This document shows, piece after piece, positions 8,754-51,122 of a stretch of DNA of 64,000 nt. This stretch comes from Escherichia coli (GTDB lineage: Bacteria > Pseudomonadota > Gammaproteobacteria > Enterobacterales > Enterobacteriaceae), in the NCBI RefSeq assembly GCF_011045215.1, contig NZ_CP049201.1, one strand, 5' to 3'. The position numbers and the translations under genes are program-made. Numbering within the stretch: the stretch's first letter is position 1; the number at the start of each line of letters is the position of its first letter. The notes under the pieces are model-generated. The model saw nothing but the letters and a program-made list of their open reading frames with translations. It searched no databases and was not told the DNA's origin.

Positions 8754-9226
8754 ACAACCTCGCTTTATGAATAAAAAACTAACAGCAGCCAGTGGAGAGC
8801 ATTTATCATTAACATTTACAGATAAGATGACGTACATCATTGAAACGCCATTAAGCTATATACCTGCAGCATTTGTAGTTGCACTCCGCAACTCTGCGAC
8901 TACGGTTATAAAAGCATTGGCAACTTTTGCCACCGGCAAATCTTCCATGGATTTCCTCTGCCGGTTTTTTATTTTCGTCGATGCATAACATTGCATTTAC
9001 ATCAATACCGTCTATTGTCATAAGTATGTTGTACCGATGCTCGGGTGATATTGGCGGTCTTCGCCAGCCGGTTCTGTGTAGTTGCTCCCTGTGACCGGTT
9101 TTTTATTTCTCACATTACAGCAGCCCCTCACCAAAGGGCTGCTGTAATGCCTGCTGTTACTCACAAATCAGACCATCATGATCACCGCTCATCCCTGGAC
9201 TGTTCCCGCAGTCGGAGTTTTGTTTT

Positions 9227-10413: not shown

Positions 10414-10780
10414 CCCGCAGACGGGAGAACAGCCCGGATACCAGCGATGCGATATCCTGCTGGTGGATGAATGAGAGAATCTTCACTGACACCACCGATA
10501 CCAGTACCGCACAAAGCGCGTCGAGAGATGTGCTGTGGAGATTCAGTTTTTCAACCAGGTAAGACGCCATCACATCCGCCCCCAGCACGCCAACAATGAA
10601 CGACACCAGAAAATGCGCTGCCACACGCCAGACAGAAATCTTCTGTGGTATCGTGGCCACAAACAGCGCCCCTGCGAATGCACCAAACACAATCCCGAAA
10701 TCCGTTCCGGTAAACAGCCCGAATACCGTCGCCCCGCCGAGCGCCGCAGCCGTGCCGGAACCGGATAAGGGTTCAGACAT
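10391..10780 (-). CDS. holin (three predicted TM helices), 129 aa from MSEPLSG
   Basis: Internal ATG preceded by a GGAG Shine-Dalgarno; three hydrophobic segments; first gene of the lysis cassette. Confidence 0.5.
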   Translation of the reverse strand: MSEPLSGSGTAAALGGATVFGLFTGTDFGIVFGAFAGALFVATIPQKISVWRVAAHFLVSFIVGVLGADVMASYLVEKLNLHSTSLDALCAVLVSVVSVKILSFIHQQDIASLVSGLFSRLRGGGGNVK

Positions 10781-10796: not shown

Positions 10797-10822
10797 ATAA
10801 AAAAGGGCCTCTGTCGGCCCGT
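10797..10822 (-). terminator. terminator-like hairpin immediately upstream of the holin RBS
   Basis: gggcc-tctgtc-ggccc stem-loop followed on the minus strand by a T-run. Confidence 0.4.
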
Positions 10823-10856
10823 AAAAAAACACCCCGTCAAAGGCACCCGCAGATAC

Positions 10857-10900
10857 CTTTTGTGTGGTGTTATCTGGTGTTTTCTGGTGTGGTGTGTGCA
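10857..10900. repeat. GT-rich (TGGTGT)n-like degenerate repeat, CA-rich and G-poor on the transcribed minus strand
   Basis: Direct reading: ttttgtgtggtgttatctggtgttttctggtgtggtgtgtg. Confidence 0.6.
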
Positions 10901-10946
10901 GGACACAGATGTGAAAAAGGTCCGCTGGTACGAACCCTGTATATGG

Positions 10947-10975
10947 ATAAAAAAATGCCCGTCAGGAGACGGGCC
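10947..10975 (-). terminator. rho-independent terminator-like hairpin
   Basis: gcccgtc-agga-gacgggc stem-loop followed on the minus strand by a run of 7 T. Confidence 0.5.
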
Positions 10976-11277
10976 AGAGCATTCATCGTGTAGTAATAGA
11001 ATTATATTTATATATGGTCGCCACCAGAATGAGTCGTCAACCTACAAAGCCATCCTGGCTTACTGTACGTGTGCGCATGGAACAGGTAACGACTCATTCT
11101 GCTAACGACGTTTACAAGTAATAATCACATACCATTATGTAATACAAAAAAAAGCAGCACTGAAACTGTAACCGTTCAGATATTACAGCATGAAGAAAAA
11201 CAATAGTACCTACAAAGCTGTTCTCCGCGAAAATTCGCCAGTGCTGATAAAGCTATGCCTCGTTTGTTTTACAGGAG

Positions 11278-11349
<72 letters not shown>

Positions 11350-11352
11350 ATA

Positions 11353-11428
<76 letters not shown>

Positions 11429-12036
11429 GTTGGTTCCTCGGGAGTGAGATGAGATGCCCCGATACATAATGTATCATTCCCTCGGAACCACAAAAATAAT
11501 ACTAATAAATAATCAGGATGCAATATTTACCAACTATGTAATTGTAAATTTGTTTGAATAAAAAAATTACTAAACACGCCATACCCCCCTAAAAAGGGGG
11601 TCGTAATAATATAAGTGATACTAAACATCACATTACTAAATACATTGTATTAAGCTGGCGACCCGATGCGTAATCCCTTGATATTAAAAACTCCAAACAA
11701 AATCAGAATGCCATCTAAATACACAAAAAGCTGGCTTCACACCACCCTGTATGTGAACGCAGAACTCATCACCCCACGCGCTTTCGCAGCCAGTACACAA
11801 CCTGTGTCAAACGCTGGCAGATGAACAATGAAACTGCCAGCACGGTCACCTATCTTAGTTCGCGTCTCGCATTCTGCTTGATAATAAGTTTCCCGTTCTT
11901 CTCTTATTGTGCATTTCTCAGTTTATCTGTCAGTAGCATTTTGACATACCAATAATTCCTGTCGAGAAAATCAGTGAGCTAAAAAACCGTATTCACAGCC
12001 TCGGGCACGTTTAACGTACCGCACCACTTTTCGGGC

Positions 12037-12062
12037 GTAAAAAAACCCGCATTAAGCGGGTT
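12037..12062 (-). terminator. rho-independent terminator just downstream of the Q-like gene (tR'-like)
   Basis: acccgc-ttaat-gcgggt stem-loop followed on the minus strand by 7 T; lies about 80 bp after the Q-like stop. Confidence 0.55.
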
Positions 12063-12144: not shown

Positions 12145-12687
12145 TCAAGCCATTTTTTGAGCAAATGATTCTCGCATGGGAATGTATAGCGCATACTCAG
12201 CAACAGCCAACCAATTAGCAATTCGCTTTTCGCATGTGCTAAAACACCACTCTGGGTGTGCATCATTTAGCAATTCAGCCATTTTTCGCTTAGTCATCCC
12301 CCGCCCCTCATAGCGTTGCCGGAGAATACAAATCAATCCCGGATGATCCGCCATAACTTCGCCAATAACTCTGTCGATTATTAATGCCTCTGAATCGGCA
12401 CAATGTGCCAGCCAGCTCTTTTGCTTGCCGTTAATCATATCCCGCAAAAAAGCCTCAAGTTCAGGCTTGTCCAGACCTGCTTTTTTCATCCTCCGGAGCG
12501 CCTCGTTAATTGCCGTTTTTGTCAGCTTTTTAGAGGTCAACATCTGGTTAAACATATTCCCTGTCTTACCGCCACCAATATACGACCAGCGCCCCCACAT
12601 ACGCAGTTTTCCCTGAATCCAGACACTTTCCAGCGTAGTGAGACGAAGGTGTTCTCCGCTTTTTCCTGTATTCGTTGGGTAAATCAC
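12145..12687 (-). CDS. putative late-gene antiterminator (Q-like), about 180 aa, GTG start
   Basis: Last gene before a promoter-terminator region, the tRNAs and the lysis cassette; GTG start with AAGGAGG Shine-Dalgarno 7 nt upstream; assignment is positional. Confidence 0.4.
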   Translation of the reverse strand: MIYPTNTGKSGEHLRLTTLESVWIQGKLRMWGRWSYIGGGKTGNMFNQMLTSKKLTKTAINEALRRMKKAGLDKPELEAFLRDMINGKQKSWLAHCADSEALIIDRVIGEVMADHPGLICILRQRYEGRGMTKRKMAELLNDAHPEWCFSTCEKRIANWLAVAEYALYIPMRESFAQKMA

Positions 12688-12974
12688 AAATATCCCTCCT
12701 TTCTCCAGATTTCTTGTGTGCGAAAAACACCTTCTGCATGCATCAGGCGCAATTCTTCTTTGGTGTAATCGATGGTTTTTACTCTCCCGTCGATTAAATC
12801 GTGGCACGAGCTACAGGCAATCGCCGCCTGCATATCGTGTGGTTTTGTCGCTGTTCCACACGTCCCCGCCAGCCTGTAATGTGCCAGCACAGACGTTCCG
12901 GGATTGTGATTGCAGTAGCCAGGAATTCTGACCTGGCACATCTGGCCCCGCGCCGCTTTACGCAAATTCACCAT
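12684..12974 (-). CDS. DUF1364-family protein (YbcO-like putative nuclease), 96 aa
   Basis: Cys-rich motifs CQVRIPGYCN...HYRLAGTCGT...IACSSCHD as in lambdoid YbcO/NinG-region proteins. Confidence 0.55.
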   Translation of the reverse strand: MVNLRKAARGQMCQVRIPGYCNHNPGTSVLAHYRLAGTCGTATKPHDMQAAIACSSCHDLIDGRVKTIDYTKEELRLMHAEGVFRTQEIWRKEGYL

Positions 12975-26629: not shown

Positions 26630-26856
26630 GCGCAGCCACAAAGCTCACAGGAGAAAAACCAGTGCGATACACAAAAATTAAACCATGTCCATTTTGTGGT
26701 TGTCCATCAGTAACGGTGAAAGCCATTTCAGGATATTACCGAGCGAAGTGTAACGGATGCGAATCCCGAACCGGTTATGGTGGAAGTGAAAAGGAAGCAC
26801 TCGAAAGATGGAATAAACGAACCACTGGAAATAATAATGGAGGTGTTCATGTATAA
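26620..26856 (+). CDS. ralR: RalR-like restriction-alleviation protein / type I toxin
   Basis: [48 protein letters not shown] matches Rac RalR. Confidence 0.7.
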
Positions 26857-27037
26857 AATTACCGCCACTATTGAAAAGGAAGGTGGCACTCCTACTAACT
26901 GGACAAGATATTCAAAATCTAAACTAACGAAATCAGAATGCGAAAAAATGCTCTCAGGTAAAAAAGAAGCGGGCGTTTCCAGAGAGCAGAAAGTAAAACT
27001 GATAAATTTTAATTGCGAGAAACTTCAGTCCTGGTGA
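26837..27037 (+). CDS. ydaC: YdaC-like small protein; start uncertain
   Basis: [23 protein letters not shown]...; position between ralR and xis as in Rac. Confidence 0.5.
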   Translation: MEVFMYKITATIEKEGGTPTNWTRYSKSKLTKSECEKMLSGKKEAGVSREQKVKLINFNCEKLQSW

Positions 27038-31338: not shown

Positions 31339-31459
31339 AAAAAAAAGCCGACTCATCAAAGTCGGCGTCGTACGAATCAATTGTGCTATGCAGTAATTCA
31401 AAAAAGGAAGTAAGACAATATGGAGCGCAACGCCCATCGCTTGACGTTGCATTCACCTG
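31339..31459 (-). ncRNA. fnrS: FnrS small RNA
   Basis: Reverse complement reads GCAGGTGAATGCAACGTCAAGCGATGGGCGTTGCGCTCC...GACGCCGACTTTGATGAGTCGGCTTTTTTTT with terminal hairpin; lies between zntB and dbpA as expected. Confidence 0.75.
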
Positions 31460-31555
31460 CAAGAGAGATATTGCCCTGAATGGGTAGAGAGTTTATTGAC
31501 TTCGCTCAAACTTTGCGGCGTTTTTGTATACAGACAGCCGGAAAAATTGCTTTTG

Positions 31556-34837: not shown

Positions 34838-34933
34838 ACCGGCGCAGAGGAGACAATGCCGGATTTAAGACGCGGATGCACTGCTGTGTGTACTGTAGAG
34901 TCTGGCGGATGTCGACAGACTCTATTTTTTTAT
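34838..34933 (+). ncRNA. mcaS: McaS (IsrA) small RNA
   Basis: ACCGGCGCAGAGGAGACAATGCCGGATTTAAGACGCGGATGCACTGCTGTGTGTACTGTAGAGTCTGGCGGATGTCGACAGACTCTATTTTTTTAT between smrA and abgR. Confidence 0.7.
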
Positions 34934-51084: not shown

Positions 51085-51088
51085 GTTA

Positions 51089-51122
51089 ATATGCCTGATG
51101 GTGTTGCACCATCAGGCATATT
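51089..51122. terminator. palindromic hairpin between convergent tpx and tyrR
   Basis: atatgcctgatggtg-ttgc-accatcaggcatat perfect stem-loop. Confidence 0.4.

What the first reader, a model, noticed from the sequence alone, without database searches (positions are those of the whole stretch)
11025..11101. 13-bp perfect inverted repeat flanking a 51-nt loop just downstream of the tRNAs
CAGAATGAGTCGT (11025-11037) pairs perfectly with ACGACTCATTCTG (11089-11101). The element lies in transcribed late-leader DNA and could form a long-stem hairpin: a processing site, an sRNA, or a protein recognition site.
Basis: seen in the sequence. Interest (0 to 1): 0.35.

Follow-up and report, generated by a model that had tools for sequence, protein, structure and literature searches.

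The report
Conserved RNA hairpin in prophage late leader
The inverted repeat is real and encodes a long RNA hairpin that many E. coli lambda-like prophages keep, by compensating mutations, between their tRNA genes and their lysis genes; it belongs to no described RNA family, and it most likely marks a site where the late transcript is cut or stabilised.

Summary
CAGAATGAGTCGT (11025-11037) pairs perfectly with 11089-11101, and 0.02-0.09 such repeats are expected by chance in the window. It is the core of a roughly 25-bp stem-loop (11017-11109).

The stem works as RNA on the minus strand, which is the Q-dependent late-operon strand:
- The minus strand folds at -45.9 kcal/mol, the plus strand at -37.2.
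- In 30 distinct homologues from E. coli prophages, 94.6% of stem cells pair and 12 of 21 pairs carry compensatory changes.
- G-U pairs outnumber A-C mismatches 71 to 15.

The "51-nt loop" is not a loop: the stem continues into it and carries two small hairpins.

In every locus sampled, the hairpin follows a second conserved structured RNA, a four-way junction ending in CAGUGCUG plus a U-run (11146-11246). What lies downstream of the hairpin varies: a short terminator-ended RNA here, an STnc100/EcOnc27-like sRNA elsewhere.

No Rfam family and no paper in the searched library matches the hairpin. It is not a terminator, a tRNA, an ORF, a dispersed repeat or a Pas sRNA.

The function is inferred, not shown. 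The most likely role is an RNase III-type processing or stability site in the late leader. Rivals are the 5' domain of a small RNA and a protein-binding RNA. I rate it a new member of a known kind, of moderate interest.

The parts
11089..11101 (-). 5' arm of the core helix in the RNA (CAGAAUGAGUCGU, read on the minus strand).
   Evidence: The GAAUG box is conserved in all A-G variants.
11025..11037 (-). 3' arm of the core helix in the RNA (ACGACUCAUUCUG, read on the minus strand).
   Evidence: The CAUUC box is conserved.
11017..11109 (-). The whole stem-loop. From the base upwards: an outer 7-bp helix (two G-U pairs), a G/G mismatch, a 15-bp continuous helix, a bulged U and a 4-bp helix. The top carries two small hairpins. 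Helical length is about 25 bp.
   Evidence: Minimum-free-energy fold, RNAalifold consensus, covariance-model match at 11014-11113 with 91.4 bits, and pair counts.
11045..11082 (-). Apical, variable part of the hairpin. It forms two small hairpins in this variant, and this variant also carries a 5-nt insertion relative to types B-E.
   Evidence: This region differs between types and is not supported by covariation.
11146..11246 (-). Upstream partner, here called the Y element. It is a four-way-junction RNA closed by CAGCACUG (11246-11239) pairing with CAGUGCUG (11162-11155), followed by a run of 8 U (11153-11146).
   Evidence: 22 consensus pairs, 11 with compensatory changes, and the GCACUG/CAGUGC closing stem invariant. 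Apart from a few unrelated motif matches, every CAGUGCU..U-run motif found upstream of the holin is followed by a family hairpin.
11277..11428 (-). Phage tRNA-Thr(UGU) at 11353-11428 and tRNA-Gly(UCC) at 11277-11349, upstream in the same transcription direction.
   Evidence: ARAGORN and Rfam tRNA matches of 69.8 and 65.4 bits.
10949..11016 (-). Downstream module. It comprises an A/U-rich linker, the conserved GAUGAAUG (10987-10980), and an intrinsic terminator (stem 10974-10957, U-run 10955-10949). A perfect TATAAT (11006-11001) could start a separate RNA of about 50 nt.
   Evidence: Terminator scan. The module is conserved in types A-D. Rfam matches are weak and below threshold: AgvB 22.4 bits and STnc100 20 bits. 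The promoter is inferred from the sequence only.
11121..11129 (-). Candidate extended -10 element (TGTGATTAT). It would place a transcription start 4-5 nt before the base of the hairpin. Relevant only to the rival reading in which the hairpin is the 5' domain of an sRNA.
   Evidence: Read from the sequence. The promoter scan did not call it, and its geometry is not conserved between types.

Best explanation
The repeat encodes a strand-specific RNA stem-loop of about 25 bp, made when the late operon of this lambda-like prophage is transcribed (minus strand of the window). It is the second half of a conserved two-part structured-RNA module: a four-way junction ending in a U-run, then the long hairpin. 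The module sits after the phage tRNA genes and before several further terminators and the holin gene.

The most likely mechanism runs as follows. RNA polymerase reads through the U-run, mainly Q-modified polymerase during lytic growth. The hairpin then forms and serves as a double-stranded-RNA processing and stability site, with host RNase III as the obvious enzyme. Cleavage would separate the tRNA/four-way-junction part from the downstream RNA. It would leave a base-paired 3' end on the upstream product. It would also set the 5' end of the downstream terminator-ended small RNA and of the lysis-gene message.

Shown: the repeat exists, the structure is on the late strand, and the structure is under selection. 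It is always linked to the upstream element, and it belongs to no described family.

Inferred: that it is cleaved, by which enzyme, and what cleavage achieves.
For: - The repeat is real and unlikely by chance.
- The fold is significant, and the minus strand folds better than the plus strand. The same holds for all 13 close variants, by 4-14 kcal/mol. It holds most strongly for the distant F variants, about -43 against -18.
- Covariation in 30 distinct sequences: 94.6% of cells paired, 12 of 21 pairs with compensatory changes, score 0.463 against 0.226 in shuffles (0 of 500 reach it) and 0.04-0.19 when partners are slid.
- G-U pairs (71) far exceed A-C mismatches (15).
- Even the conserved GAAUG/CAUUC box shows compensatory changes in further variants, e.g. 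GGAUG/CAUCC and GAAUA/UAUCC.
- The helix length matches the roughly 22 bp that RNase III accommodates, and RNase III substrates have a preferred base-pair pattern (PMC6212723). A conserved stem sequence is therefore compatible with this reading.
- No U-run follows the hairpin, so it is not a terminator.
- No conserved promoter lies between the upstream U-run and the hairpin. In F variants the hairpin starts inside the U-run, so the hairpin is made by read-through transcripts.
- The hairpin is constantly linked to the upstream element, while three different kinds of downstream module occur. That pattern fits a boundary or processing element.
- In relatives, the Rfam STnc100 model begins inside the hairpin's 3' arm.
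Against: - No cleavage data exist for any member of the family.
- I could not score the stem against the RNase III base-pair preferences, because the matrix was not available.
- The strong sequence conservation of the core could instead reflect a sequence-specific protein.
- In phage 933W/Sp5, the STnc100-family sRNA EcOnc27 runs at about 235/247 nt. That is longer than the 206-nt Rfam model, which suggests its short 5' hairpin stays in the mature RNA rather than being cut.
- -10-like hexamers lie a few nucleotides upstream of the hairpin base in types A-D. If real, the hairpin could be the 5' end of a primary transcript.
- Most of the covariation separates two deep clades (A-E against F-G), so the number of independent events is smaller than the cell counts suggest.
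Confidence: 0.45

Rival explanations
1. The hairpin is the 5'-terminal structural domain of an independently transcribed small RNA of about 165 nt. It would start near 11113 and end at the terminator at 10949-10974. The hairpin would protect this RNA from 5'-end-dependent decay. The working part would be the single-stranded linker containing GAUGAAUG.
For: - The unit of hairpin, roughly 45-nt linker and terminator is conserved in types A-E.
- -10-like elements (TGTGATTAT in the window, TATCAT in type C) sit about 7 nt before the base of the stem.
- EcOnc27/STnc100 in Sp5 appears to keep a short 5' hairpin, since its northern size exceeds the Rfam model.
- sRNA pairs at this site are known in at least eight Sakai prophages (PMC4104026, PMC7873438).
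Against: - The promoter scan did not call these sites.
- Their spacing and -35 regions are not conserved.
- In F variants there is no room for a promoter, because the hairpin begins in the preceding U-run.
- The hairpin travels with the upstream element, not with any one downstream body.
Confidence: 0.2
2. The hairpin is a sequence-specific binding site on the RNA for a phage or host protein. Candidates are a factor that modifies the transcribing polymerase, as the put RNAs of HK022 do, or one that controls stability or translation of the late message. The conserved GAAUG/CAUUC box would be the recognition element.
For: The core box is much more conserved than the rest of the stem. This holds across variants whose flanks are about 70% identical or not alignable. 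A single-base bulge is conserved next to the core helix in types A-E.
Against: - No candidate protein co-occurs. The family is found with different Q types, different holins and different neighbours.
- The box itself tolerates compensatory changes.
- Part of its apparent invariance comes from how sequences were retrieved (pattern, regular expression).
- Q-modified polymerase already ignores terminators, so a second antitermination device would be redundant.
Confidence: 0.12
3. The repeat acts at the DNA level. It would be an operator or recombination site recognised as two half-sites, a cruciform, or the terminal repeats of a small mobile insertion.
For: The 13-bp arms are perfect in DNA. The plus strand also folds significantly.
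Against: - G-U pairs (71) against A-C (15) show that only one strand's pairing is maintained, and the antisense strand of F variants folds at about -18 against -43.
- There is one copy per prophage, always in the same context.
- Spacing of 51 nt between half-sites does not suit a dimeric DNA-binding protein; this rests on my own knowledge.
Confidence: 0.04
4. The conserved AUG in the 5' arm starts a small leader peptide (29 aa here, MSRYLFHAH...), and the hairpin regulates its translation.
For: An AUG is part of the conserved box in all variants, and the N-terminal residues look similar within types A-E.
Against: The ORF length runs from 5 to more than 29 aa, with early stops in many variants. 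The peptides of A-E, F and G are unrelated. No Shine-Dalgarno sequence lies upstream, and the AUG is buried in the most stable part of the helix.
Confidence: 0.02
5. The repeat is a chance or historical palindrome with no present function.
For: Nothing specific.
Against: The chance expectation is 0.02-0.09 per window. The stem is conserved, with compensatory changes, across sequence types whose flanks have diverged.
Confidence: 0.02

Closest known systems
RNase III processing hairpins of phage polycistronic transcripts (T7 R1.1-type sites; lambda N-leader and sib sites)
   Same: A long, nearly perfect RNA helix of about two turns, with a small bulge or mismatch. It lies between functional units of a phage transcript and is not followed by a U-run. 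Its length matches the roughly 22 bp that RNase III accommodates (PMC6212723; the phage examples are from my own knowledge).
   Different: No cleavage has been shown and there is no sequence similarity. Here the hairpin is permanently coupled to an upstream four-way-junction RNA and sits inside a run of terminators in a Q-dependent leader.
STnc100 (Rfam RF02076) = EcOnc27 = sRNA103, the sense-strand Hfq-binding sRNA between the late promoter and the lysis genes of Stx and other lambdoid prophages
   Same: It occupies the same genomic niche and the same strand. In F and G relatives, an STnc100-like body follows the hairpin directly, and the Rfam model starts inside the hairpin's 3' arm. Phage 933W has a short hairpin at the same place.
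   Different: The hairpin itself lies outside the Rfam model. The window has no STnc100 body: the match is 20 bits against a threshold of 47, and the GGGAGGCACCCG motif is absent. STnc100 bodies also occur without the long hairpin.
AgvB/AsxR anti-sRNAs (RF02702, RF02703) of EHEC prophages
   Same: The RNA downstream of the hairpin (10950-10999) has the same layout: a short variable 5' part, a small helix, and a GCCCG...CGGGC terminator. It gives a weak AgvB match (E = 0.024 when 201 nt are searched). A perfect TATAAT sits at the right distance upstream.
   Different: The score is 22.4 bits against a threshold of 56. AsxR is antisense to the late operon (PMC4104026), whereas this RNA is sense. 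The comparison concerns the neighbour of the hairpin, not the hairpin.
Precursor of 24B_1 (EcOnc53), the 80-nt hairpin of Stx phage phi24B that is cut to a 20-nt RNA
   Same: It is a hairpin of about 80 nt encoded by a lambdoid phage, made after induction and reported to be processed (PMC4426718, PMC10732415).
   Different: It lies at a different locus (between lom and vb_24B_43). I could not compare the sequences directly, and no small product is known here.
Transcribed repeat hairpins (ERIC/IRU elements of enterobacteria, Correia elements of Neisseria)
   Same: Imperfect palindromes that fold in mRNA. Correia elements are cut by RNase III (my own knowledge).
   Different: Those are dispersed in many copies and either orientation. 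This element is single-copy per prophage, has a fixed orientation and context, and shows strand-specific pairing.

Membership tests
RNase III processing site | A double-stranded RNA helix of about 22 bp on the transcribed strand. | tested here: met
   The window hairpin has 7 + 15 + 4 bp with one mismatch and one bulge. F variants have 9 + 19 bp. The structure is conserved by covariation. The length criterion comes from PMC6212723.
RNase III processing site | The base-pair pattern of the proximal, middle and distal boxes, and absence of antideterminant pairs. | not tested
   The scoring matrix (Table S4 of PMC6212723) is not held in the library.
RNase III processing site | rnc-dependent cleavage leaving 2-nt 3' overhangs. 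| not testable with these tools
   This needs RNA-end mapping in rnc+ and rnc- hosts, or an in-vitro cleavage assay.
STnc100 (RF02076) | A match to the covariance model at or above 47 bits. | tested here: not met
   The match is 20 bits at 10945-11026, and it covers only the linker and terminator.
STnc100 (RF02076) | The conserved body, including GGUGAAUCCCC... and CGGGAGGCACCCG. | tested here: not met
   The motif is absent from the window. It is present in 24 distinct contexts among the fetched loci.
AgvB/AsxR anti-sRNA (RF02702/RF02703) | A match at or above 56 bits (AgvB) or 63 bits (AsxR). | tested here: not met
   The matches are 22.4 and 14.5 bits, at 10950-10999 on the late (sense) strand, downstream of the hairpin. 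AsxR, by contrast, is antisense to the late operon (PMC4104026).
Intrinsic terminator | A G+C-rich stem followed directly by a U-run. | tested here: not met
   The hairpin is followed by GGUGGCGACCAUAUAUA. The scan calls terminators only at 10974-10957 and 10820-10805.
tRNA or tRNA-like gene | A cloverleaf recognised by ARAGORN or the Rfam tRNA model. | tested here: not met
   Only the two tRNAs at 11277-11428 are found. There is no tRNA match at 11014-11113, even at E up to 10.
Pas sRNAs (PasA/C/D of EPEC) | Sequence similarity to the pas loci of E. coli E2348/69. | tested here: not met
   BLAST of the whole leader against the three pas loci gives only chance matches of 13-17 nt, and the covariance model finds nothing credible there.
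Dispersed repeat or miniature mobile element | Many copies at unrelated sites, either orientation, no strand-specific pairing. | tested here: not met
   There is one copy in the window. Copies are always upstream of lysis genes on the late strand. G-U pairs number 71 against 15 A-C mismatches.
put-type polymerase-modifying RNA (HK022) | Two stem-loops just downstream of a promoter that make the polymerase resistant to terminators. | not testable with these tools
   The architecture differs: one long stem, more than 1 kb downstream of the Q gene after which the late promoter is expected. Function would need read-through assays.

The most novel reading that the evidence does not exclude
The four-way junction plus long hairpin is an undescribed two-part structured-RNA module of lambdoid late leaders, present in roughly 5-8% of complete E. 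coli genomes. It would couple small-RNA biogenesis to Q antitermination. Only read-through transcripts would form the hairpin. Its cleavage would then release the upstream tRNA/junction RNA and create the 5' end of the downstream Hfq-binding sRNA (STnc100/EcOnc27 family, or the short RNA in this window). That would explain why sRNA genes cluster between the late promoter and the lysis genes.
Probability: 0.2. Interest if true: 0.6.

Novelty: new member of a known kind. Interest (0 to 1): 0.42.

Why it matters
Lambdoid prophages of pathogenic E. coli carry Hfq-binding small RNAs between the late promoter and the lysis genes, next to toxin genes. Reviews state that the reason for this arrangement is unclear (PMC7873438). 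This work defines a conserved, covarying and unannotated RNA structure at the upstream edge of that sRNA site. It is tied to a second conserved structure and to the phage tRNA genes.

If the hairpin is a processing site, it gives a concrete and testable route by which these sRNAs, the phage tRNAs and the lysis message are separated and stabilised during induction. Both motifs are also missing from Rfam 15, the release searched here, and could be added to genome annotation.

Tried and rejected
- **Known RNA family.** Rfam gives nothing for the hairpin in the window or in relatives, even at E up to 10. The only matches are to microRNA-precursor models, which reflect the hairpin shape.
- **Literature by sequence.** No relevant paper in the library holds either arm.
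- **Pas sRNAs.** The location looked promising, but there is no similarity, and PasA lies on the opposite strand.
- **Membership in STnc100 or AgvB.** Both are below threshold and concern the neighbouring RNA.
- **Small ORF.** Not conserved.
- **Promoter inside or next to the hairpin.** Sigma-70-like hexamers exist, but their geometry is not conserved. I found no sigma-54 GG-N10-GC arrangement by eye.
- **Trans target for the arm within the window.** None.
- **Alternative pairing.** GAUGAAUG in the linker could pair with the 3' arm, but over only 5 bp, and the motif is absent in type E.
- **Sequenced phages.** BLAST of the window element finds nothing. Distant variants occur in only two records, SerU-LTIIb and vB_EcoS-683R6.
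- **Other genera.** The holin-based scan of one genome per species returned five loci. Only a borderline hairpin turned up, in Citrobacter braakii (E = 0.05).
- **Scoring against RNase III preferences.** The matrix was not available.
- **Phage hit H4.** It turned out to be the host thrU-tyrU-glyT-thrT operon, which is irrelevant.

Full report
**1. The observation**

The sequence holds CAGAATGAGTCGT at 11025-11037 and its exact reverse complement at 11089-11101, 51 nt apart. The repeat finder extends the arms to 21 nt (11017-11037 and 11089-11109) at 86% complementarity.

A perfect inverted repeat of at least 13 bp with a loop of 100 nt or less occurs at only three places in the 64-kb window. 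The expectation is 0.02 from shuffles and 0.09 analytically.

**2. Context**

On the minus strand the order of features is as follows:
- DUF1367, YbcO and a DUF1133/Q-like antiterminator (12145-12807)
- a terminator-like hairpin at about 12036-12062
- a long leader
- a 17-bp hairpin (11431-11490)
- tRNA-Thr (11353-11428) and tRNA-Gly (11277-11349)
- a structured region ending in a run of 8 U (11146-11246)
- the hairpin (11017-11109)
- an A/U-rich linker and a terminator (10974-10957 plus U-run)
- two or three more terminator-like hairpins
- the holin (start at 10780), a second holin and a GH108 endolysin

This is the late-operon leader of a lambdoid prophage. RalA, FnrS and McaS elsewhere in the window place it in an E. 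coli chromosome at a Rac-type locus.

**3. The structure is RNA, on the late strand**

The minus strand folds at -45.9 kcal/mol (z = -5.6) and the plus strand at -37.2. The difference comes from G-U pairs, which become A-C mismatches on the other strand.

The "51-nt loop" is not a loop. The helix continues with U-G and A-U pairs, a bulged U and four more pairs, and it carries two small hairpins on top.

**4. Relatives**

- Three complete E. coli genomes carry a 99% identical copy.
- About two dozen carry versions 70-80% identical.
- A pattern scan of viral contigs gave 25 more loci.
- Together these make 13 distinct sequences of five types, A to E. In every one the late-strand fold is more stable than the antisense fold, by 4-14 kcal/mol.
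- RNAalifold predicts 28 pairs, 7 of them with compensatory changes.

I built a covariance model from these and searched 80 loci that had been retrieved only through the neighbouring holin protein. It found much more distant members, types F and G, always on the late strand and always upstream of the lysis genes. These keep little beyond the GAAUG/CAUUC box, yet they form 28-bp stems rich in G-U. The sense strand folds at about -43 kcal/mol and the antisense at about -18.

On 30 distinct sequences, a named stem of 21 pairs gives these counts:
- 94.6% of cells are paired.
- 12 pairs carry compensatory changes.
- The covariation score is 0.463. Shuffles give 0.226 (0 of 500 reach the observed value), and sliding the partners gives 0.04-0.19.

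Counting by register gives 590 Watson-Crick pairs, 71 G-U and only 15 A-C. Further variants show compensatory changes even inside the box, such as GGAUG/CAUCC and GAAUA/UAUCC.

Two caveats apply. Much of the covariation separates two deep clades. The apparent invariance of the box is partly built into how the sequences were collected.

The F type alone is found in 434 of 5426 complete E. coli genomes. Of these, 285 cover at least 80% of a query that includes the hairpin, and 40 places are on plasmids.

**5. What it is linked to**

In all sampled loci the hairpin follows the motif CAGUGCU(G)-U-run, either directly (types F and G) or within about 40 nt (types A to E).

That motif is the 3' side of a second conserved structure, a four-way junction. 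Its closing stem, GCACUG/CAGUGC, is invariant, and its three arms covary: 11 of 22 pairs carry compensatory changes. It usually follows tRNA-Gly.

The sequence downstream of the hairpin varies between loci:
- a short linker plus terminator in the window and in types A to E
- an STnc100-like body in many F and G loci, with the Rfam model starting inside the hairpin's 3' arm
- a third kind of terminator-ended sequence in others

STnc100 bodies also occur without a long hairpin, for example in 933W, which has only a short one. The hairpin therefore belongs with the upstream element, and it marks the boundary to exchangeable downstream small-RNA modules.

**6. What it is not**

- Not a terminator: no U-run follows it.
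- Not a tRNA.
- Not in any Rfam family.
- Not a Pas sRNA.
- Not a coding ORF: the ORF from the conserved AUG runs from 5 to more than 29 aa and is unrelated between types.
- Not a dispersed repeat.
- Unlikely to be a DNA-level site, given the strand asymmetry.

**7. Mechanism**

No conserved promoter lies between the preceding U-run and the hairpin, and in type F there is no room for one. The hairpin is therefore made by polymerases that read through. During lytic growth these are Q-modified polymerases.

A helix of about 25 bp matches what E. coli RNase III accommodates (about 22 bp). RNase III substrates also have a preferred base-pair pattern (PMC6212723), which could account for the conserved box.

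I therefore favour a processing and stability site. It would separate the tRNA/junction part from the downstream RNA, leave a paired 3' end upstream, and define the 5' end downstream. This step is inferred, not shown.

The main rival is that the hairpin is the 5' domain of a primary small RNA of about 165 nt:
- For: -10-like hexamers sit just before the base of the stem in types A to D. EcOnc27 in Sp5 runs at 235/247 nt, longer than the 206-nt Rfam model, so it probably keeps its short 5' hairpin.
- Against: the F-type geometry leaves no room for a promoter, and the promoter spacing is not conserved between types.

A sequence-specific RNA-binding protein cannot be excluded.

**8. Comparison with known elements, and verdict**

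The hairpin works most like the RNase III sites of phage transcripts. It shares its niche with STnc100/EcOnc27 and the AgvB/AsxR sRNAs (PMC4104026, PMC7873438). As a processed phage hairpin it resembles the 24B_1 precursor (PMC4426718, PMC10732415). It fails the membership tests for every named RNA family. I file it as a new member of a known kind: a conserved cis-acting phage RNA hairpin.

It is of moderate interest, for two reasons. It comes as a two-part module that nobody seems to have described. It also sits exactly where prophage sRNAs of pathogenic E. coli are made.

Noticed in passing
window 11146-11246 (minus strand): A conserved four-way-junction RNA lies between tRNA-Gly and the hairpin. 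Its closing stem GCACUG/CAGUGC is invariant, its three arms covary (11 of 22 pairs with compensatory changes), and it ends in a U-run. It is not in Rfam. It may be a branched terminator or a stable RNA derived from the tRNA trailer.
   Followed up: partly
window 10949-11006 (minus strand): A perfect TATAAT (11006-11001) sits about 7 nt before a terminator-ended stretch of about 50 nt. That stretch gives a weak AgvB match (22.4 bits; E = 0.024 in a 201-nt search). It could be a short anti-sRNA-like transcript on the late strand.
   Followed up: partly
window 11431-11490: A 17-bp inverted repeat with 26 nt between the arms ends 2 nt before the 5' end of tRNA-Thr on the minus strand. It may be a processing or promoter-proximal structure for the tRNA pair.
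   Followed up: no
window 10805-10935 (minus strand): This stretch holds a CA-rich tract with direct repeats ACACCAGA(A/U)AAC (about 10865-10905), two or three terminator-like hairpins, and then the holin ribosome-binding site. The last 100 nt before the holin are conserved in 528 of 5426 complete E. coli genomes.
   Followed up: no
window 26855-27033 (-), 31343-31460 (-), 34838-34933 (+): Rfam matches above threshold to RalA (antitoxin RNA of the Rac prophage), FnrS and McaS. The window is therefore an E. coli chromosome segment with a prophage at a Rac-type locus next to core genes.
   Followed up: no
window 9113-9149 and 51088-51122: These are the only other perfect inverted repeats of at least 13 bp in the window. 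The first has a 14-bp stem and 9-nt loop, downstream of the lysis genes. The second has a 16-bp stem and 3-nt loop, just after a stop codon. Neither has an obvious U-run.
   Followed up: no
L125 about 1800-2860 (Leclercia adecarboxylata MAG); L119 1403-1489 and 3303-3389 (phage SerU-LTIIb); L111 1785-1874 and 2567-2657: The Leclercia contig carries four STnc100-like bodies in tandem, each with its own terminator and no long hairpin. The LT-IIb phage and L111 carry the hairpin plus STnc100-like unit twice.
   Followed up: no
E. coli plasmids: Forty of the 573 matches to the F-type hairpin region lie on plasmids, for example NZ_CP065971.1 (128 kb) and NZ_CP083264.1 (102 kb). These may be phage-plasmids.
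   Followed up: no
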